Source: Macrostomum lignano (taxonomy: Eukaryota). From it: DNA of 64,000 nt. Under the pieces are notes generated by a model, which saw only the letters and a program-made list of their open reading frames with translations, was not told the DNA's origin and did not search any database. The stretch spans positions 1 through 64,000 of the forward strand of contig NIVC01003264.1 in the NCBI GenBank assembly GCA_002269645.1, read 5' to 3'. A program made the position numbers and the translations under genes. Each line of letters starts with the position of its first letter. Position 1 is the stretch's first letter. Shown here piece after piece: positions 21,351 through 61,300 of the stretch.

Positions 21351-22039
21351 AAGCAAACGACCCACATTGAAAGCTTTTTAAGTTCGGAAGCTAATCCAGA
21401 TCTCTAGAAGCAGAATCCAATAATCCGCAGGCCCGTCGAGCAGACATCAAAGAAACTGAAAAGCGATTTCGCACAGTCTGTCTCCAGCTGCCTCACGATA
21501 GAAATTAGGAAATTCATTTCTCGCCGCCCATCCGCCGTGGAAGTCTCTCAGCCACCCCCCTCGGGAATGCGGAGCGCAGCAACTTCCCAGGTCGAGTTTC
21601 CAGGCCGCCCCGCCCAGACCGATCGCGATAACTGAGTTACCGAATTGAGTTGCGAATTGCCGCGACCCCCAGGGCCTGACTGATGGACGCGGGCCGCGGT
21701 GCTCTATTAAATGCCTCTCAACTTACTCGAGTCCCACGGCTTCAAGAAGAGTTGCTTCTTTAATTGAAAAAAGCATTTTGCTTCAACGAAAAATGTCTCC
21801 TAACAATTTTCAACAAGTGCGCCGCGTCGGCCCGCTAGGCTAATGGCGATGACCGAGCTACTTATTATCGGCGACGATTGATTTCTGATTTTACTACTTT
21901 TAGTAGCAACGCAATTTTTTGTGCTGCCATTTCTGCTGAAAGCTACATGTTAAAACTTTAAAATAGAAATTAGACCAGAGAGAACATTTCAGAAGATAGC
22001 TAAACGTTATTCTTATAAAGTAGCTTAGAATTAGCGTAG

Positions 22040-24975
22040 AAAGTAGCTCAGAAAGTACGCTCGTAGCTGGTAGCTCATGCAGTAGCTCAGAAAGAAGCTC
22101 AGAAAGTAGCTCAGAAAGTAGCTCAGAAAGTAGCCCAGAAAGTAGCTCAGAAAGTAGCTCAGAAAGTAGCCCAGAAAGTAGCTCAGAAAGTAGCTCAGAA
22201 AGTAGCCCAGAAAGTAGCCCAGAAAGTACGCTCGTAGCTGGTAGCTCATGCAGTAGCTCATGCAGTAGCTCATGCAGTAGCTCAGAAAGTAGCTCAGAAA
22301 GTAGCTCAGAAAGTAGCACAGAAAGTAGCTCAGAAAGAAGCTCAGAAAGTAGCCCAGACAGTAGCCAAGACAGTAGCCCAGAAAGTAGCTCAGAAAGTAG
22401 CTCAGAAAGTACGCTCGTAGCTGGTAGCTCATGCAGTAGCTCATGCAGTAGCTCAGAAAGTAGCTCAGAAAGTAGCTCAGAAAATAGCTCAGACAGTAGC
22501 TCAGAAAGTAGCTCAGAAAGTAGCCCAGAAAGTAGCCCAGACAGTAGCCCAGAAAGTAGCTCAGAAAGTAGCTCAGAAAGTACGCTCGTAGCTGGTAGCT
22601 CATGCAGTAGCTCATGCAGTAGCTCAGAAAGTAGCTCAGAAAGTAGCTCAGAAAGTAGCTCAGAAAGTTGCTCAGAAAGTAGCCCAGACAGTAGCCCAGA
22701 AAGTTGCTCAGAAAGTAGCTCAGAAAGTACGCTCGTAGCTGGTAGCTCATGCAGTAGCTCATGCAGTAGCTCATGCAGTAGCTCAGAAAGTAGCTGATGC
22801 AGTAGCTGATGCAGTAGCTCATGCAGTAGCTCATGCAGTAGCTCACAAAGTAGCCCAGACAGTAGCCCAGAAAGTAGCTCAGAAAGTAGCTCAGAAAGTA
22901 GCCCAGACATAGCCCAGACAGTAGCTCAGAAAGTAGCTCAGACAGTAGCTCAGAAAGTAGCTCACAAAGTATCTCAGACAGTAGCTAAGGCAGTAGCTCA
23001 GAAAGTAGCTCAGGCAGTAGCTCAGACAGTAGCTCAGACAGTAGCTCAGAAAGTAGCTGGGGCAGTAGCTCAGAAAGTAGCTCAGACAGTAGCTCAGAAA
23101 GTAGCTGGGGCAGTAGCTCAGAAAGTAGCTCAGAAAGTAGCTCAGAAAGTAGCTCAGAAAGTAGCTCAGACAGTAGCTCAGAAAGTAGCTCAGGCAGTAA
23201 CTCAGAAAGTACGCTCGTAGCTGGTAGCTCATTCAGTAGCTCAGAAAGTAGCCCAGAAAGTAGCTCAGAAAGTAGCTCAGAAAATAGCTCAGACAGTAGC
23301 TCAGAAAGTAGCTCAGAAAGTAGCCCAGAAAGTAGCCCAAACAGTAGCCCAGAAAGTAGCCCAGACAGTAGCCCAGAAAGTAGCTCAGAAGTTAGCTCAG
23401 AAAGTACGCTCGTAGCTGGTAGCTCATGCAGTAGCTCATGCAGTAGCTCAGAAAGTAGCTCAGAAAGCAGCTCAGAAAGTAGCTCAGAAAGTAGCTCAGA
23501 AAGTAGCACAGAAAGTAGCTCAGAAAGTAGCTCAGAAAGTAGCCCAGACAGTAGCCCAGACAGTAGCCCAGAAAGTAGCTCAGAAAGTAGCTCAGAAAGT
23601 ACGCTCGTAGCTGGTAGCTCAGAAAGTAGCTCAGAAAGTAGCTCAGAAAGTAGCTCAGAAAGTAGCTCAGAAAATAGCTCAGACAGTAGCTCAGAAAGTA
23701 GCTCAGAAAATAGCTCAGACAGTAGCTCAGAAAGTAGCTCAGAAAGTAGCTCAGAAAGTAGCTCAGACAGTACGCTCGTAGCTGGTAGCTCATGCAGTAG
23801 CTCATGCAGTAGCTCATGCAGTAGCTCATGCAGTAGCTCATGCAGTAGCTCAGAAAGTAGCTCAGAAAGTAGCTCAGAAAGTAGCCCAGACAGTAGCCCA
23901 GAAAGTAGCTCAGAAAGTAGCTCAGAAAGTACGCTCGTAGCTGGTAGCTCATGCAGTAGCTCATGCAGTAGCTCATGCAGTAGCTCATGCAGTAGCTCAG
24001 AAAGTAGCTGATGCAGTAGCTGATGCAGTAGCTCATGCAGTAGCTCATGCAGTAGCTCATGCAGTAGCTCACAAAGTAGCTCAGAAAGTAGCTCACAAAG
24101 TAGCCCAGACAGTAGCCCAGAAAGTAGCTCAGAAAGTAGCTCAGAAAGTAGCCCAGACATAGCCCAGACAGTAGCTCAGAAAGTAGCTCACAAAGTATCT
24201 CAGACAGTAGCTAAGGCAGTAGCTCAGAAAGTAGCTCAGGCAGTAGCTCAGACAGTAGCTCAGACAGTAGCTCAGAAAGTAGCTGGGGCAGTAGCTCAGA
24301 AAGTAGCTCAGACAGTAGCTCAGAAAGTAGCTCAGGCAGTAGCTCAGAAAGTACGCTCGTAGCTGGTAGCTCATTCAGTAGCTCAGAAAGTAGCCCAGAA
24401 AGTAGCTCAGAAAGTAGCTCAGAAAGTTGCTCAGAAAGTAGCCCAGACATAGCCCAGACAGTAGCTCAGAAAGTAGCTTAGACAGTAGCTCACAAAGTAG
24501 CTCACAAAGAATCTCAGAGAGTAGCTAAGGCAGTAGCTCAGAAAGTAGCTCAGGCAGTAGCTCAGACAGTAGCTCAGACAGTAGCTCAGAAAGTAGATGG
24601 GGCAGTAGCTCAGAAAGTAGCTCAGACAGTAGCTCAGAAAGTAGCTGGGGCAGTAGCTCAGAAAGTAGCTCAGAAAGTAGCTCAGAAAGTAGCTCAGACA
24701 GTAGCTCAGAAAGTAGCTGAGGCAGTAGCTCAGAAAGTAGCTCACAAAGTAGCTCAGAAAGTAGCTGGGGCAGTAGCTCAGAAAGTAGCTCAGGCAGTAG
24801 CTCAGACAGTAGCTCAGACAGTAGCTCAGAAAGTAGCTGGGGCAGTAGCTCAGAAATTAGCTGGGGCAGTAGCTCAGAAAGTAGCTCAGACAGTAGCTCA
24901 GAAATTAGCTGGGGCAGTAGCTCAGAAAGTAGCTGAGGCAGTAGCTCAGAAAGTAGCTCAGAAAGAAAATAGCTC
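22040..24975. repeat. 12 bp satellite (AGTAGCTCAGAA)n with higher-order structure
   Basis: About 2.9 kb array punctuated by a marker unit gtacgctcgtagctggtagctc and by larger duplicated blocks (diagnostic cagacatagcccag at ~22905, ~24155, ~24445). Confidence 0.97.
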
Positions 24976-36562: not shown

Positions 36563-37156
36563 TCACTTGTGCAGCTTAACAGGGAGCGCAAAATTTGTTT
36601 CAATGTCTGCCGCTTTATAAATTGGTGATCAAGAAAGCATTGACTGCACACAATAGCCTCTAGAACGGATGCTAAAGCCTGCCGACGGTTTCCTGGCTAA
36701 AAGCAAGAAACCGCAGAAGACCACCAGCTTCGCTACCGCTGACAAGAAACATTTTCTTTTCTTAAACAAAGTCAAGACGCGAAGATGAATGCCGGAGGTA
36801 GAACATTCCGTAGGAAGGCCTCCGCGCAGAAACAAGATACAGAAAACGAGTTCCACAGAGAACTTCACCGGAGGCGTCAAAGCTGCGCAGTAACGGAAGG
36901 CGTCACAGGCACAAAAGAGAATCAAGAAAAGAAAAGCAGGAAAATTGGATGCGAGAGACAGTTAGCGGAGTGGGCGTGAGAATGCCAAGAGGTATGGTAA
37001 TCGGGTACTCGTACACGGACGCTTATTTTATCTTGCAATTTGTTATGGCGACATTTTTCGGGCTGTGCGAAAGATTTCGCGATCCAAAACTTTATTAGTC
37101 TACTAGTCTCAGTAGTCTAAATTGAATCTCACAACATCTCTGGTTTTAAGTCAGAC

Positions 37157-50200: not shown

Positions 50201-53200
50201 AAGAAAATTTTATTTTTATTTTGTTTTTGTTGACTTTTATTTTCCTACTATTTGTTAGATGAGCTACACTTCCACAGTTCCACCAGTGAACGAGCCAAGC
50301 CTGGCACCATGGAAGGTGGCATTGGGCGAGAGCAAGAGAACCCGAGGCCCTACCAAGGTTGAGTAAATAAGTTAGATTGCAATGCATTTTTAAATTTCAC
50401 ATTTTTCACCAAAAAAGTGCTCTTGTTTTGCAACCATTGTGTTGGGTAAGATATTGATTGATAGAAAACTTTCAGATCTTTGTTTTTTTAGCTTACAGAA
50501 AATTATTGGCTAAAACTTTACAATAAAGTATTATTTTGAATTTTAAAATGTGCATTATGTCTGACACTTTGTATACATTTTTCATTAATGTATATTAGAA
50601 CTTATATTTTATTAGATACTTATAATATATACTTTCCTAAGTATGATATTTCACTAGTGACACAAAACAAAGTTTTTGCATATAAGATTCAATTGGCTTC
50701 CAAAAAGCTCCTTTATTGTCAAAATTGCAAAAAAGGTTCTTTTATTGTTAAAATTGCAAAAAGGTCCTTTAGTATCACAAAGTAGAAAAACTTGCATATT
50801 TAATAATAAGAAACTTGTTATTATTAATTTTAAAGAAGTTCTATTCCAAAATTGCCCTGCAAAGATTCTATCCTACTTCTTATTAAATTAAAAGCATTAA
50901 TAAATTTTGTACAAAGAATAAAAAACACTATTCTCTATAGGCCCTAGTTGCTTATTGGATATCAATGTTATATTTTATTTTATCAAATAAGATAATAAAG
51001 TGACCATGATAGGCAATAAAAGCAAAGTAACCTTAGGCCTTATAAAGATAGGCCTAAGTTATAGCAATATGACAGTGACAACATATTTTAATAATACCTA
51101 GATATATATTGTGTAATAGGCCTCATTTTTATGCCATTAGTTTCTAGGAATTGTGTATTTTGAAAGTACTACTATTGTTATACTGTACAAATATTATAAA
51201 TATTTTCCATAAGCGAAATATTCTATATATTTTGAATATTATCATTTGTTATAAACTGTTGCAAAACTTTATTATGAAAAAGAGCCTACTGGAAGCCAAG
51301 AAAAATAAATTGTTTTCATTTCTATTTCAGTTTACCTTGTCTGTCTTCTTGCTTCAAGCTTGAAATCGTTCTAGTATTTTGAAATTGAAGTCTTGTTCAA
51401 TACTTATTGACTTAGTTATTTAGGTAAAAGCATTAAGAAGCCCCAAAAAGGGCCAAAATTGGGAGAGTTCAAACTGTTCTCAGAAGAATGAGAAATCCAG
51501 ATCTAAAATCTGAGAAATTGCCCTTAGAAGGCAGGAATCCTACCACAGGGTAGGCCTAGAGAAGTCCAGACTCAGAGTCTGAGAAACCTGCCTCAGGGCA
51601 GAATACCCAGCAAATAAGCTGTGACCCTCTGATCCTAGGAACGCCCAGGACTGAGAGAATAATATCTTTAGAAGGGTATAAGAATAGGATAGACAGTGCT
51701 TAAAGACTGCTCAGGCCAGAAAGTACAATAGAAGTACATATGCTACCAATAGAAGTACATATACTACCAATAGAAGTATATGCGCTACCAGTAGAAAGCC
51801 AAGAAAGGCAATTAATAACCAGTAGATCATTAAGAAATAACCACTGTTACAACTTTGGTGACAGGATATTCAGTAATAGGAAATAGAAAAGTACCCATGT
51901 AACAATTACATGCCATAACTCCTTTCAGTTAGTGTATAACAATAGGCCTACTGAACAAAATGAAAAAAAATGATTTTTACAAAATGACCAAAACCAAATT
52001 AGGGTCATTCATAAATACCTTACCCTAGTTGATGAAATAATATGACAAAATTACTAGGCCTAGAAACCTTATCTATAATGTATTTTTAATAAAACCTACT
52101 TCCTGAAGACTTCCAAAAAATATAGGCCTAGTTTCTGCTCCTAATTGAGTAGGCCTAGGCTTAGTCTAAATAAGAGTCTTGGAGACTGACTGAAATAGTA
52201 GTTTGATAAGCCTATTATTATAGGCAACGATACAATTCTGCTGTATAGCTACTAGGCCGTATCTGGGACATGTATTATTAATCATACATCTTTCTCTACA
52301 GTTTATAATAACATAGACCTAGTCTATAGGAATTACTCTGGGATTATAGGGACAAATTTATTTATAGGAAAAATAATTTAACGCGGGAAACTGCATTTAT
52401 GCCAGTCAAAATATATATATCGGCTACTAGGGACTTTTCTGTATATAGCCATAACATATAAATATTAAGGTGTTTGTTTTGGTCGGGTCCCTGCCTCTAA
52501 CTACTTCACGAAATTCAAAATCATTTGACGCGTGAAGCATGGGCCGCGATACTATTTGAAAATTTAGTGCACATAAACAAAGCCGTCTGTAAAACGCTCA
52601 AATTCCTACGAGTTGCATTTAGGTCTATAAAGATCAATTAAAACAGAGGTTTTGAAAACAGCGAAAAACATAATGAAACTCTTGCAACGAAGAAAGTTAA
52701 TTGGTTGCTGAAACCGATTTTTGACCGACTGTAATTGATTTTTGCCTACCAAGCGCAATCATCGGATTCTTATGCTTAATTGAAAGCATTTCTACATGTC
52801 ATTCTTGATGAAGGGTAAAGCTATGACGAAAGATTGGTTGAGTCACACTAAAAGTGGAGCTGGTTAAAGTCAAACAAACGCGCAGGCAGACCGCGAGACG
52901 GCGTGGTTATTTTCTGGCTTGTTTGCCTTAATCAGCAATTAGCTATAGCCGCTTGCCGTCGTCCTCTCCAATCACTCTTACTCTAAGTTTGCAGATGACT
53001 TTTGCTTTCATTTTATTTTGATGACATTTTTCGGGCTATGTGAGAGATTTTACGAATAAAATCTTTGTAATTTATTTGTCTGTTTCAGTACGAATATTTT
53101 AAATCTCAATTGAACGAGCTACAATAATGGTGAACATGTAATGGTATTAAATAAATGAGGCGTAAAGGCGGTGGTTCATTAATATATATTTGAGAACAAG

Positions 53201-53588
53201 ATAGTTCGCAAGAGGGCAGAATAAAGGTAGCCGTTTGATTGTGCATGGGTGCTTTATACTTATAGGCCACTGCATGGTCAGATCGTCATATATTCCACTT
53301 CGTCAGATCGGATGATGCAGTGAAAGGAGCTGGTGGACTTAATTCATTTACTATTTACGAAGGTTATGGTTTTCTAAGTAAATGGAAAATTCATTATCAT
53401 TCATCACAAAATGGAAAAGGATTCTGAAGCAGCGACAGTAGAAAGCGCTCAGCCGCTATCCAGAAAGATTCCGCACAACAACTAGTTAATAAGAGAAGAC
53501 GTCTAGCAGGAAAGGGTACAAGCAAAGGGGAGAAAAAAGCAGCGTCGCAGAAGCAGCGCTATTTGAACTTTTTGACTAGTACGCTGCG

Positions 53589-54965
53589 ATGAACTTGCTG
53601 CTTGGACCAGAAGCGCTTGCGTTGAAGAGTGAATTGTCTATATTTGATCCACCCCATGTACAGTCAAGTGTTGTTCAGAGTTAATTTATGCATTATCAAC
53701 CTCAGCACGGCTTGGCACGAGGGACTCTCAAATTGAATTTGAACTGCCTCTTCCTGGTCATTTTTACATCAACGCTAAACTGAAAGTTTTGACTGTTGCA
53801 TTCCGTGTTCGAGATTCAGACAATACAGCCATTGACGAGGCCAAAAACTACGTGTCCCTGAGTAATCTTCCTTTGGCGGCTCTTTTTCAAGATGTGCAGC
53901 TAAGCATTGGCGACACAGCTCGTCGATGGCGGGAATTTTCTCTATCCTTACAAATTAGCCTATCCTTACAAATGTCTCTAAGCCTGTTGGAATATGATAA
54001 AATTGCTCAAAAGGGACCGATGAAAGCATGGGGATTCCGAAAAGACACTACAGGAGCAATGGCCGGATGTTGTGGGCGACTTTAATGTCGGCTGCATGCA
54101 AAGGCGTGCGCTGATAGCAGACGATAGACTCTGTGTCATTTCGGGCCCGCTGTTTCTCGACATTTTTGGTCAGCCCGGCTATCTAATCTCAAAGCTTGGC
54201 TTGCGCATCAAGCTGATCCCCGCAGACGCCAAGTTTGTGCTTCTCGCAGCAAGCATTGGCACGAACTTTCTGAAGGCCTACAATATCGGCATTGTTCGTG
54301 CAGAGCTTCGTATGCGCTATATTCAACCATCGCCCAGTGTCATTGCAGCACACACGGATGAACTGAAACGACAGAACGCTGTGTACCCGATGAAATCACT
54401 GCAGATGGGCATATTCACAGTGCCGCAGGGAACATCAAGCTACACCAGGGAAAATCTGTTTCAAGGATATGTTCCGAAGCTACTCATAGTAGCGTTTGTG
54501 CCAAATCGCGCTTTTAACGCGAGTCTAGATAGCAATCCCTTCAATTTCGTGCATGCACACGTCTCTTTTTTGGTGTGTATGTGAATGGGGAGCCCTGCCC
54601 CGAACGGCCTCTTCAACCAAATGTTACAGCAAGATGGATGCGCAATGGAGTACACTTGGCTACGGCAGCAACTGGGTCTGTACTTGCGAAACCGAGATAT
54701 CGGTTTTGACATGGACGATTACTTGACTGGATACTGGTCTTTACGCAGAAAATTTGAGTCCAGAACTCGAAGCTGGTGGTGATGCCCAGCCTATGTAGGG
54801 ACATGGACAACAAGAGTAGACTACTCTAGCTGTCCATGAGTAGGGAATGTACGACTGGAGATGAAATTCAGTACCCAGACAGCGGCAGTGTATAACGTAA
54901 TAATTGGAAGCGTCTTTTACAGGAAACTGCCATTGACAGAATTTCGAGACGTTGTACCAAGTACA
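53589..54965 (+). pseudogene. Decayed adintovirus/Maverick (Polinton) hexon-like major capsid protein gene (endogenous viral relic)
   Basis: Across stops and frameshifts: KSELSIFDPPHVQSS, QIEFELP, LFQDVQL, YPYK, GFRKDTTG, SGPLFLDIFGQ, QPSPSVIAAH..NAVYP, ENLFQGYVPKLLIVAFVPNRAF..NPFNF and GNVRLEMKF..NVII..F, colinear with the adintovirus hexon motif series. Confidence 0.82.
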
Positions 54966-54994
54966 TTATGGAATGTAAATGTTCCCATCATATC

Positions 54995-55140
54995 CCGGCC
55001 CTCCATTCTCTTACACTATCATACCCTCCATTCTCTCACACTATCATACCCTCCATTCTCTCACACTATCATACCCTCCATTCTCTCACACTATCATACC
55101 CTCCATTCTCTCACACTATCATACCCTCCCTTCTCTCACA
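54995..55140. repeat. 25 bp tandem repeat (ATACCCTCCATTCTCTCACACTATC) x~5
   Basis: Direct reading; it starts right after the capsid relic. Confidence 0.9.
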
Positions 55141-55556
55141 TTTATAAACTCACATTCATATCTCACCCCCTCTCACCCCCCTATCTTATATCCTACTTAT
55201 CCTAATTTTTGTCGATTCAATTTTTTCTTTCACTCGCTTTAACATGATGCAATTACATTCTTTCCACTTTGGAAGACAGTTGACTTTTCGAACTCAATCA
55301 ATGTTCGCCGCACACAATAGTAAATGTATATTAATCAAACATTGACTGTCCTTGGGAAATCTGCAACAACGACGAAGTTATTATCAACGGGGGGGGCTGT
55401 GTGGTAGTCGAGTTAGTGTAAACTATTTTTTTGTTTTTATTACGAGTAACTAGCTACGGCAAGTAGAACCGATAGATCGAAGGTTTTATCAATCGGGACG
55501 ACAAAACGACTGGAATTCATGTAGGATTCCAGGTAAATTATTTTACAAAGCTATTT

Positions 55557-55761
55557 CGTTCCTAGTCACTTCGTCATCTGATATGACGAAATGAAATATG
55601 ACGATCTGACCATGCCAGTGACCCATGAATTCACTTGGAATTGATACGATTGGTGGATGACGAAATGACTCTCTTCGGGTAGTGGATGCTAATTAAGATG
55701 ACTAAGTGACCCTAATCGAGTTGGGTTGATGACACCCCAGATGACGAAATGACTAGGAACC
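55557..55761. mobile_element. MITE with ~23 bp TIRs and a 4 bp ATTT TSD
   Basis: gttcctagtcacttcgtcatctg versus cagatgacgaaatgactaggaac (22/23 match); ATTT at 55553-55556 and 55762-55765. A related terminus lies inverted at ~53266-53328. Confidence 0.75.
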
Positions 55762-57028
55762 ATTTATAGCTTTTTCATGGAACATTCCGGAAGAATGTTT
55801 TAGAAAGGGTTCGCGCGGGAATTCAAATTACTATGTATGTATTTGGAATATATTTATCGCGGAAATTTCAAGAATGAGATATTTACTGCATGGTTGACAA
55901 GTTCGCGAATGTTTAGTACAAAGTCACTACAAACATTTTAATATAAATTTTCATCCCTGGCACGTACGAATGACCTACTGTACTTTTGTATAGCATATGC
56001 AGCTATAGCTATAATATGGCGTTGTAGTTATATTATACATTTAGCCATGCATACGGTACAGTTTACACATAGACAACTTAAAGCAGTTAATTAACCCTTA
56101 GACCTACATGTACTGTACTAATTCGACCTTGAGTTTGCAGTGTACATGTACAAGCATAATCGTAAACTTTCTTCTTGGGTTTATCGTTAAATTTAATTTA
56201 GAAGAGAAGATCCCTAATTGTTTATATCTTATTTCAAAGTTTAAAATGCATCGTCACAATATAAGGAAACGTCAGCAAACGCGGATTATAATTGTTTCTT
56301 GGACTTGGGGGTGTGTACGTGGAGGAGGCCGGGAATACTTTTTCAATAAGATAGTTTTTTTCAGACGGAACAGGGGAATACAATGCTATACGGGTTGCGG
56401 TCTAGCTTTTTCATTAGTCCCTCAGGAGGTCAAAATAAAAGTAAGCTCGTATAGGTAGCTCGTATGGAATAATTTCACAGAGCAGCTTACCCTGCAGAGG
56501 CAGAGCACGTAACAGCTGGCAAACAACTGCAACAGCAGGCTTCCGAGCTGCTCGCGGCTTCTGCCTGCACAGCTATGGGTCATGCTCAAACTGAGGTTAC
56601 TTAACTCTGGGCGTGTGCTGGATTTTGTGACTGCATAAAATGTAGACCCCGGAAACAAAAATTCCTAGCACAAATTCCAATCACTCGCGAGCAAGCTTTG
56701 GAATCTAATAAAACCTAGCATACTTCTTGAACTGGAATATTGAACAGGCTATAATATGGAATCTGCATGAACATGGTACGTTTAGCACGTGTCTGCAATT
56801 AATCCCCGCAATTAAAATTTCGTCCTCTTCACATCGAAAGGTTATATTTTTAAAACCTCCAAAAGTCTGATCGTAAGCACTGACTTACCAGGCATGCGCA
56901 CATCCTAGTTTCAGTCTAGGCAGAGGTCAGAGGATTCACATCAACTATAATCTATGGTAAAATACACACTCCGTTCCGGTCGGTTATGGCCGTAAGTAGA
57001 ACTTTTAGAACGAGATCTTCCTTGTTTT

Positions 57029-58324
<1,296 letters not shown>

Positions 58325-61300
58325 TTCAAGCTCTTTGAGAACTGGTTTTAGTATCCGACTCAAACCAGACTGAGACGGATAAAGTATAGGGAACAAAAAC
58401 TTAAGGAGCCCAAGAACCACTGTAGTATAAAGCACGACTGTATAAGCTGTTAAAAAAGCTAGACGAGTGAGGAAACAGATCAGCTTCTCTGTTTGAACTG
58501 ACTGGGTCTAGGAAAAAGCACGCTTCTTATACTGTTCGTGTTACCCATCCCTCTTGTACAGGGACCAGTGTGCCTTCAGTCTAGAAACAGGCTACTTAGA
58601 TGTACAGTTTTGTTTCTTTTTCTGCCCTAGTCGGCTGAATCTTTTAATAAGCATTGCTTACCATGCCGACCGGAACGGAGAGAAAAAATATCCATGGCTC
58701 AGTCAGAAGCCAAATAGTCTATGGTAAGCACGGCTAAAAAAGTAATTAAATAAAAAGTTATAAGAAATCATGCATACGCATGCACTTCCTCAACAACCAC
58801 AGAGCAGAGAAGCCACCATGCTAGAAGACGAAGACGTTGTTAGCAAAGCCTCGCAGACGACAAGTTGGCGGACACTGCTGGGCGTTTTCTGCGCGGCTGC
58901 CGTTGTAGGATTCTGCGCTACCTCTGCGATCCTCATGCTGATGTCGCGGACTCGAGGAGCTGCGGGTGTTGCGAATTGAACTGCTGCCGGAAGTCCCCAG
59001 CTGGCATGTGAGCTGAACGAAAGTCGATTGACATGCTCCACGCCACAGTTGGTCATTCTGCAGACAAAATGATTGCCGATGGCAAGCATATTCGTTTATC
59101 CATTCCTCTGTTGCGTGCATGTGATACACAAATGATACTCACACGATTTCATATTTTACCGTACGACATCAATATGATTCAATCATTCTAACATGTCTCG
59201 TCTATGAATCACTTCCCCGTAAAGCAATCTCACGTCTGAGAAGACGTTTTCAACGTCCTGTGTGCGACGTCGATTACTTTATTAAGAACAAAGTACTTTT
59301 GCAGGACTTTCGATTTTCAACCGACGTTAGCTAAGGTACCTAAGACGGGGAAAAACAACTTATCTGCACAAAAAAAGAAAAAAAGATGTTTTTGTGCATC
59401 TGAATCCGTCATGAGTGTAATGTAGAAAAATACCCATTTACAATGGAATCGAATTAGTCTAACCGTAGTATCCCTTGCTAAATCTCTAAATATCCGGAAC
59501 TGTCCCCTGCCAGCTGGTACAAAATAATTGCAGTCACAGGTAAATTACTCGTAAGAACATATCTCTAGGTTCTACATTCATCTACGTGTCTACATATGCG
59601 AGGCTCGTGCATGTACTACAAGTAAAATAGCTATATACAGTCCTGAAAAATTCCCTCTAGCAAAACATCAGGTCAATGCTTCGAGTGAACTACATGTCCG
59701 AAATGTGTACACTTCGTATCCATATAGTATGTTTAAATACAGTTTGACAACATTGGCAAGTATCTCCGGTAAAGCAGATGGAGTTTATCGTTAATAAGTA
59801 TGCGCTCTCGTACAAGACCGAGAGCGCAGGTTAGCCAGTGTATAGAAATAGTTTACAATGCATTCAGGTACAGGACACAGGACACACCTAAAGGAATTGA
59901 GATGAGGCTGCTAAAATCGTGGATACGGAGAATAAAGTGAAAACCCTGCATGCTCGCTCAAAAACTAATTTAAGTTATTGCGCGTAAGAGAAATTATAAT
60001 TAAATGTGTATATGCGCAGGTACTTGCTTAAGTTGTCCATGGCGAAGCAGCCACCACATAGGAATAATAAATGACTAATTTGCTTAGCTAGCACTGTTCT
60101 ACATCTATAAATAGCTGTGAGACTCAGCGCTGCAGTGATCAAGTGGGCCCCGATGGCGCATTCTTGACATAAAATTCTAGAAACAAGCGGGACACGCCCG
60201 AGGCTTTCGCCAAGAAAGAAAATCACTGCCAGCAGACGAAACGGTGGCTAGTAAGCCTCGTCGACGACCAATTGGCAGATCCCGCTGGTTGTCTTCGGTA
60301 TGGCTGCAGCTGCCGGCTTCTGCGCAACGTCATTGTGCATCATTCTGTTGTCTCGGACTCAAGCGTCTATACAGACCTGACCTGCAGAGGGTCGAGTTCA
60401 CTCTTCCAAGTTCCACAAAGTCGAAAGTTTTACGTCTCGGCGCGGACGACGTGGTCCTAGCTGAAGTGACCTTACATGTACATGCCCGGATTTGTCTGCC
60501 GTTACCAACACAGGACTTTACCTCCAGCTGGTGTCACAAATGCTTTACCGAAGTCGGTATGATATTGAAAATCTCCTCTCATCCTTTGACCCTACGTATT
60601 TTCGGTTCTCTCTCAGTACATACAGTATACATACAAGGGTACTATCCTACATATTAAATAATTTTTCCTCAAATTGTTTTCATCAAACATTTGATGCGAA
60701 TAGTTTAATATTAAAAAAATAAGAAGACTAAAATTATGACTAACATGATAAGATCGAACTATTGAAGTTATCGAAACAGGCTAATTTTCATTTTGTTTTA
60801 TTCTTTCAAAAATTAAATTGTTTTTGTTTTACTTAAAGTAGTGTGCTTTAAAAATGAATATTTAGAATAGCTCTTGATTTTATGCGCAAATTGTCTGCAT
60901 GCGGGTTGGGCTTGTCTTGGGGCAAATATCAAGGACAACTTAAGCAGATATGTATGTTACTTAAGTAGTCCTTGGCAAATCTACTGTTAATTGTTCGGAA
61001 AAAGGAAAGGTTATTGATTCACAGATATAGTTAGCTTAGCTACATAAGTACCACATAGTACTGCTAAATAATATATTCTGTACTGTTGTTTACTTTAATA
61101 AATTTCTTTGGTGCACAAAACTGCACAGAATATTTACCGTAAACTCGAAACACGGGTTCGTGCTGCCTTACTTTCCTCTGAAACAAAAATTCCGCGATCC
61201 GCAAAACCAAAAATTCCACTTGAAAGAAGGGCATGCCAGCATGCAACCAGAAGTAGAAAGTGACAATAGCTTAAATAGCTTACTTTTTTCTGGCTGGCTT

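What the first reader, a model, noticed from the sequence alone, without database searches (positions are those of the whole stretch)
53330..54965. Endogenous adintovirus/Maverick virion-gene relic (core-like ORF + major capsid)
Seen: a full-length but stop- and frameshift-riddled capsid gene (53589-~54965). It is preceded by a Lys/Arg-rich stretch with AGG..F.IYEGYGFLS (~53330-53580). Established: adintoviruses and Mavericks encode a double jelly-roll capsid downstream of small basic GxG-motif core proteins, and they integrate into animal germlines. Inference: a fragment of a virus lineage infecting this host group, possibly undescribed. Polymerase, integrase and protease genes were not recognised in the window.
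Basis: partly seen in the sequence, partly recalled or inferred. Interest (0 to 1): 0.75.

Follow-up and report, generated by a model that had tools for sequence, protein, structure and literature searches.

The report
Decayed Maverick virus capsid gene
This is a broken capsid gene, likely left in an animal genome by a Maverick (Polinton/adintovirus) integrating DNA virus and likely decaying without function, which is an ordinary kind of viral fossil although its capsid sits on a long branch whose other members are unnamed.

Summary
The capsid relic is real. Bases 53589-54971 (+) align end to end (residues 1-441, 59% identity) with an intact 442-aa protein, P0001. The gene has an early stop, about eight frame changes and a hairpin insertion. 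P0001 is predicted to fold as a double jelly-roll (pLDDT 93.6; best solved matches Sputnik and PBCV-1 capsids). Distant relatives lie in the Maverick order integrase, minor capsid, PW, major capsid, protease. Contigs of four runs from four studies carry most of the breaks, so they are not assembly errors. A second version is broken differently, and listed substitutions are 5 silent to 16 replacement, as neutral drift predicts. The upstream 'core-like' claim is weak. Only a basic tail (53428-53589) scores marginally against a PW profile. The AGG..GYG motif does not, and its first letters overlap a host repeat. No other Maverick gene or terminal repeat was found in the 64 kb; the whole genome was not available. 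Degraded Mavericks are common and already described across animals. One lead remains: the relic and five unnamed, full-length proteins form a long-branched clade. Verdict: new member of a known kind, low interest.

The parts
53589..54971 (+). Pseudogene of a Maverick/Polinton major capsid protein (PY, hexon; double jelly-roll), full length but broken
   Evidence: 59% identity to P0001 over residues 1-441; profile hits; fold of P0001; Atlas hits of the window's own piece carry PF21738 DJR-like in 10% of members
54027..54581 (+). Longest unbroken reading frame (185 aa), used as the search query; homologous from about 54057 to 54570
53682..53684 (+). In-frame stop at codon 32 of the capsid gene
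   Evidence: also in contigs of runs X5 and X9 (records 18 and 24)
54802..54838 (.). 37-nt hairpin between two copies of a 7-nt direct repeat (54795-54801, 54840-54846), interrupting the 3' part of the gene; likely a miniature DNA-transposon insertion (inferred)
   Evidence: (pair I20); sequence; insertion
53428..53592 (+). Lys/Arg-rich 54-codon frame whose stop overlaps the capsid start codon; possibly the C-terminal remnant of the PW gene (about 0.55)
   Evidence: position as in L003 and L004; PW profile score reached by 23 of 500 codon shuffles; HMMER E 4.2
53326..53424 (+).
   Evidence: 64 of 500 codon shuffles score as high, record 12
53147..53333 (.). Dispersed host repeat that borders the relic on the left; 53262-53323 is 82.5% like the left part of the inverted-repeat element at 55547-55773, in opposite orientation
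   Evidence: (loose ends, records 12 and 13)
54999..55140 (.). 25-bp tandem array (5.7 copies) that borders the relic on the right, where the protease gene would normally begin
   Evidence: no protease signal in the window

Best explanation
The stretch is a broken, full-length capsid gene of the Maverick (Polinton/adintovirus) family, likely left by a germline integration and likely now decaying neutrally with no product. Shown: homology over the whole gene, the breaks, their presence in other sequencing runs of the same organism, and a second, differently broken version. Predicted: the double jelly-roll fold (AlphaFold model of the intact relative). Inferred: a complete element integrated through its retrovirus-like integrase. 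Later insertions and deletions (a repeat on the left, a tandem array on the right, a hairpin inside) then left about 1.6 kb, holding the capsid gene and possibly the tail of PW. The versions are likely alleles or duplicated copies of one old insertion that were already non-functional when they diverged.
For: End-to-end 59% identity to an intact 442-aa protein. Model pLDDT 93.6, pTM 0.92. Foldseek: Sputnik capsid E 1.6e-16, TM 0.65, PBCV-1 and mavirus capsids among the listed PDB matches. Best BFVD match is a Cotesia sesamiae Mombasa bracovirus protein, 26% identical; a Polinton with a fragmented capsid is listed for that bracovirus in PMC4028283 Table S1, and that the two are the same protein is my inference. 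8 of the 120 listed homologs of P0001 are named F54H12.2-like, in insects, bivalves and a crinoid. Of 9 metagenome loci, L003 carries an rve+chromo integrase (E 4.8e-11) upstream. Weak adenovirus-protease matches (E 0.006, 7e-5, 0.02; all below Pfam's cut-off) lie directly after the capsid in L003, L004 and L001. This is the order given in PMC8097293. Contigs of 4 runs show the stop and at least 6 of 8 frame changes. A second version shares one break and has at least two frame-breaking indels inside the part that is unbroken in the window. Listed substitutions: 5 silent, 16 replacement of 21, against 23% silent expected under neutrality. GC 46.7% against 36.7% and 37.5% in the flanks.
Against: The features that define a Maverick element (polymerase, integrase, terminal repeats) were not found in the window, so membership rests on the capsid alone. 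The 9 loci that give the gene order are only 22-33% identical to the query and lie outside the relic's clade in the tree (4 of them were included). The substitution count uses 21 sites inside the gene from the 40 rows shown (17 rows were not shown), so it has little power. No listed contig spans the whole stretch. The PW remnant is marginal.
Confidence: 0.88

Rival explanations
1. The capsid comes from a related non-Maverick group that shares this capsid family, such as a Polinton-like or other midsize eukaryotic dsDNA virus without the polymerase-plus-integrase pair, and it entered the genome passively.
For: The relic's clade is long-branched and has no named member. No integrase or polymerase lies beside it. 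The neighbours of its closest relatives could not be read.
Against: It nests among capsids that include sea-spider gene models fused to PW-like, protease-like, polymerase-like and integrase-like pieces (P0005, P0039; the last three labels are read from motifs and recalled). Other capsid groups match only by structure, at about 7-14% identity.
Confidence: 0.07
2. The breaks are long-read assembly errors and the organism carries an intact capsid gene at this locus.
For: Most breaks are small indels. All four runs differ from the window at one small indel at full depth.
Against: Contigs from four studies reproduce the stop and at least six frame changes. The difference seen in all runs breaks the frame further rather than repairing it.
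Confidence: 0.02
3. The fragment has been co-opted by the host, for instance as a small-RNA template against related viruses or as a short protein.
For: One run guessed to be RNA holds part of the stretch (X11). A 185-codon frame is open in the window.
Against: That frame is broken in the contigs of all four runs. Substitutions are not enriched for silent changes. X11 also covers the flank and may contain DNA.
Confidence: 0.03

Closest known systems
Maverick/Polinton major capsid protein PY (Polintoviricetes); hexon of adintoviruses with a Beta-class virion module
   Same: Same sequence family, about 440 aa, predicted double jelly-roll; relatives lie between PW and the adenovirus-like protease (PMC4028283, PMC8097293, PMC8502044).
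   Different: Broken and alone: no polymerase, integrase, ATPase, minor capsid, protease or terminal repeats in 64 kb. Its nearest intact relative P0001 is only about 27-39% identical to family members outside its own clade. Alpha or Beta class is defined by the polymerase and cannot be assigned.
Degraded Maverick fossils of vertebrates, such as the human chromosome 7 and 8 relics
   Same: Stops, frameshifts, insertions, lost genes and lost terminal repeats; 96% of 3,511 vertebrate loci are degraded (PMC8097293; PMC9683012 passages).
   Different: Apparently an invertebrate host (inferred), and less eroded: still 59% identical to an intact protein.
Polintons of the planarian Schmidtea mediterranea and Orthopolintovirales insertions in Rhabditophora
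   Same: Capsid-bearing Polintons are on record in flatworms (PMC4028283 Table S1; bioRxiv 10.1101/2025.04.19.649669 passage).
   Different: Their sequences were not compared here, and the window's host was not identified; that it is a flatworm is only my recalled impression of the host genes.
Unnamed proteins P0001, P0151, P0155 (Logan) and P0003, P0159 (JGI metagenomes)
   Same: Form a clade with the relic, SH-aLRT 100 for both the 4-row and the 6-row group.
   Different: They are full-length (442-448 aa); their hosts and neighbouring genes are unknown.

Membership tests
Maverick/Polinton (Polintoviricetes) | Major capsid protein PY with double jelly-roll fold | tested here: met
   the fold is a prediction for the intact relative P0001
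Maverick/Polinton (Polintoviricetes) | [quoted passage not shown] | tested here: inconclusive
   Not found in the window: a 2-sequence partial profile scored at background, top 46 against mean 33.5 over 86 tiles, capsid control 759. The relic is a fragment and the genome was not available.
Maverick/Polinton (Polintoviricetes) | Retrovirus-like (rve) integrase | tested here: inconclusive
   Not found in the window: top 45.5 against mean 32.4, sd 4.1, 86 tiles; tblastn negative. Present beside a distant relative, L003.
Maverick/Polinton (Polintoviricetes) | [quoted passage not shown] | tested here: inconclusive
   All at background in the window with profiles of 2 to 6 sequences; weak profiles could miss a divergent relic.
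Maverick/Polinton (Polintoviricetes) | Terminal inverted repeats with 6-bp target duplication around a 12-25 kb element | tested here: not met
   No such pair in 50800-58800; the only flanking inverted match belongs to another repeat. The locus is therefore filed as a fragment, not as an element.
Maverick/Polinton (Polintoviricetes) | PW gene directly upstream of the major capsid gene | tested here: inconclusive
   Right place and a marginal score for the basic tail; the N-terminal motif is unsupported. The profile comes from other lineages and is weak at a distance: known upstream genes of P0039 and P0005 score only 14 and 7 bits.
Adintovirus (Alpha or Beta) | Class set by the polymerase; Beta virion module has Cupiennin and GasderminX, Alpha has PLA2X | not testable with these tools
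   No polymerase or accessory gene survives in the window; definitions from PMC8502044 section 3.2.
Adintovirus (Alpha or Beta) | Evidence of a free virus (virions or unintegrated linear genomes) | not testable with these tools
   No relative of P0001 was confirmed in viral contigs (53 and 14 pattern matches, none confirmed); these scans find close relatives only.

The most novel reading that the evidence does not exclude
The relic marks an undescribed, long-branched lineage of Maverick-type viruses of this animal group that is still circulating or recently integrated; the full-length capsids P0001, P0151 and P0155 would be its living members and P0003 and P0159 its environmental sisters.
Probability: 0.4. 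Interest if true: 0.4.

Novelty: new member of a known kind. Interest (0 to 1): 0.2.

Why it matters
As a locus it matters little: broken Maverick capsid genes are among the commonest DNA-virus fossils in animals. Its use is as a pointer. It ties an animal host to a capsid clade otherwise seen here only as unnamed proteins, and its polymorphic breaks could date the insertion. If that clade proves to have complete elements in the same host group, it would add a branch to Maverick/adintovirus diversity and a system in which to look for Maverick virions, which PMC8097293 (2021) described as not yet observed.

Full report
Observation. The three + frames of 53200-55010 show a capsid-like protein scattered over all frames. 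The longest unbroken frame (54027-54581, 185 aa) found 2662 relatives at E<=0.001 and 783 at E<=1e-10 among 1.84 billion cluster representatives; most of the 150 listed are 410-450 aa. The best, P0001 (442 aa, unnamed, Logan), aligns from residue 1 to 441 on 53589-54971 with 260 of 440 identities when frame changes are allowed. The alignment shows a stop at 53682, eight frame changes and an insertion with two more stops. Four other homologs gave largely the same break places. A profile of 86 homologs hits only this region among 1284 six-frame segments.

What the protein is. The AlphaFold model of P0001 (86 sequences, pLDDT 93.6) matches double jelly-roll capsids: Sputnik (E 1.6e-16, TM 0.65), PBCV-1, EhV-201, mavirus. 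In BFVD the only listed match above 14% identity is a Cotesia sesamiae Mombasa bracovirus protein (26%, E 1e-29), and Table S1 of PMC4028283 lists a Polinton with a fragmented capsid for that virus. The window's own piece scores 0.97 against Atlas clusters where 10% of members carry PF21738 DJR-like; its recognition value (2094) is under the tool's mark, so this is weak support. Of 120 listed homologs of P0001, 8 are named F54H12.2-like in animal genomes. A metagenome scan confirmed 9 of 235 pattern matches. L003 reads ATPase-like, two small ORFs, rve+chromo integrase, a 272-aa ORF (minor capsid by recalled motif), a 168-aa basic ORF, capsid, protease-like. This is the order integrase, minor capsid, PW, major capsid, protease of PMC8097293 and apparently Integrase, Penton, Cupiennin, Hexon, Adenain on the Beta adintovirus maps (labels read from a figure's text). 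These loci are only 22-33% identical to the query.

The upstream stretch. I built a profile from 120 of 173 relatives of the gene at that position. HMMER gives the Lys/Arg-rich frame 53470-53583 E 4.2 and does not find the motif. Frameshift-aware scoring of 53300-53592 gives 41 half-bits, ending at model column 148 of 160 just before the capsid start. None of 200 shuffles and 14 of 436 tiles reach it. One tile is the region itself; 12 of the other 13 lie in tandem arrays. With composition kept, 23 of 500 codon shuffles reach it; for the motif piece, 64 of 500. Pairwise scores against the upstream parts of P0039 and P0005 were at background (31 and 131 of 200 shuffles), as was hhalign. The frame's stop overlaps the capsid start codon, which fits tight viral packing but is weak. 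I put a PW remnant at about 0.55; nothing I read supports calling it a core protein.

Rest of the element. tblastn with the 154 proteins then held found nothing outside the gene; tblastn with the ORFs of L001-L009 found only short matches at E>=0.017 elsewhere. Small frameshift-aware profiles for seven other Maverick genes scored 41-46 at best against means of 30-34 over 86 tiles, with the capsid control at 759. No terminal repeats were found. The relic is bounded by a repeat on the left and a 25-bp tandem array on the right. The neighbours are host genes (MyTH4, GDA1/CD39) and a broken DDE transposase.

Are the breaks real, and is it under selection? 14 of 24 listed runs hold the stretch or part of it, all labelled one organism, in 4 studies. 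I laid 4 of them. Listed contigs span the stop and at least 6 of the 8 frame changes in the window's form. A second version, about 2% different (12 letters over about 600), lacks several of the window's breaks, shares one, and has at least two frame-breaking indels inside the part that is open in the window. One of these appears in all four runs. 17 substitution rows, 22 indel rows and 198 pieces were not shown. The 21 listed substitutions inside the gene are 5 silent and 16 replacement, against 23.1% silent expected (binomial p = 1.0). Functional Maverick genes of cyprinid fish show omega near 0.001 (PMC8097293). Whether the versions are alleles or separate loci is not settled.

Placement. 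A quick IQ-TREE tree of 62 rows (my selection from about 270 homologs: the best hits, 13 with an organism name, 4 loci, and the window's unbroken piece, which fills 39% of columns) groups the relic with P0001, P0151 and P0155 (SH-aLRT 100, stem 0.55). It then joins P0003 and P0159 (100, stem 0.71), inside a 38-row group whose only named rows are two sea-spider gene models. No Repbase or adintovirus reference was in the tree, so 'unnamed' does not mean 'undescribed'.

Mechanism. Shown: homology, breaks, second version, missing partner genes in the window. Predicted: fold. Inferred: integration of a whole element by its integrase, loss of the flanking genes through later insertions and deletions, neutral decay. 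Rivals (non-Maverick donor, assembly error, co-option) total about 0.12.

Literature seen. PMC8097293: first of 8 parts and passages. PMC8502044: passages, section 3.2 and searches of its supplement, which was cut when stored; no flatworm term was found there, but its host table may lie in the part not held. PMC4028283: passages and Table S1. PMC9683012, PMC11161782 and bioRxiv 10.1101/2025.04.19.649669: passages only; the preprint's supplements were not seen and may list this host. Searches. I found no paper on this locus, but the host was not identified, so that search is loose.

Verdict. A real but ordinary endogenous Maverick capsid fossil; new member of a known kind; interest 0.2. The divergent clade is the only lead worth following.

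Noticed in passing
window:55547-55773: A 227-bp element with inverted ends (23 nt at 96%, 36 nt at 86%) and internal short repeats, MITE-like; a partial inverted copy lies at 53262-53323.
   Followed up: partly
window:57656-58298 (-): Broken DDE transposase (Pfam DDE_Tnp_1_7, E 5e-10 and 9e-11) in two frames; piggyBac-like by recall.
   Followed up: partly
window:53005-53066 and 37032-37093: A 62-bp dispersed repeat, 76% alike between the two places; many loose ends and high depth at 53023-53066 in the runs.
   Followed up: no
window:62508-63902 (-): Uninterrupted 464-codon frame for a GDA1/CD39 nucleoside phosphatase (E 9e-68).
   Followed up: partly
window:46543-48474 (-): 643-codon Ala-rich frame with MyTH4 and RA-like domains.
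   Followed up: partly
window:19053-20663 (-): 536-codon uninterrupted frame that reads like a Shaker-type potassium channel (recalled motifs).
   Followed up: no
window:8842-8885: Short interstitial array of a six-base telomere-like repeat.
   Followed up: no
window:1-45000: Very dense tandem arrays, including a 12-bp unit repeated about 243 times at 22017-24965.
   Followed up: no
P0005, P0039 (Nymphon striatum gene models): Host gene models that splice several Maverick genes into one 'hypothetical protein'; likely mis-annotated endogenous elements in a sea spider.
   Followed up: partly
P0257: A capsid homolog annotated under 'Solemya velum gill symbiont' groups with a scallop protein; likely host DNA in a symbiont assembly.
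   Followed up: no
L003:181-6138: A metagenome contig with ATPase-like, integrase, minor and major capsid and protease-like genes all on one strand, unlike the two-strand layout of most vertebrate Mavericks.
   Followed up: partly
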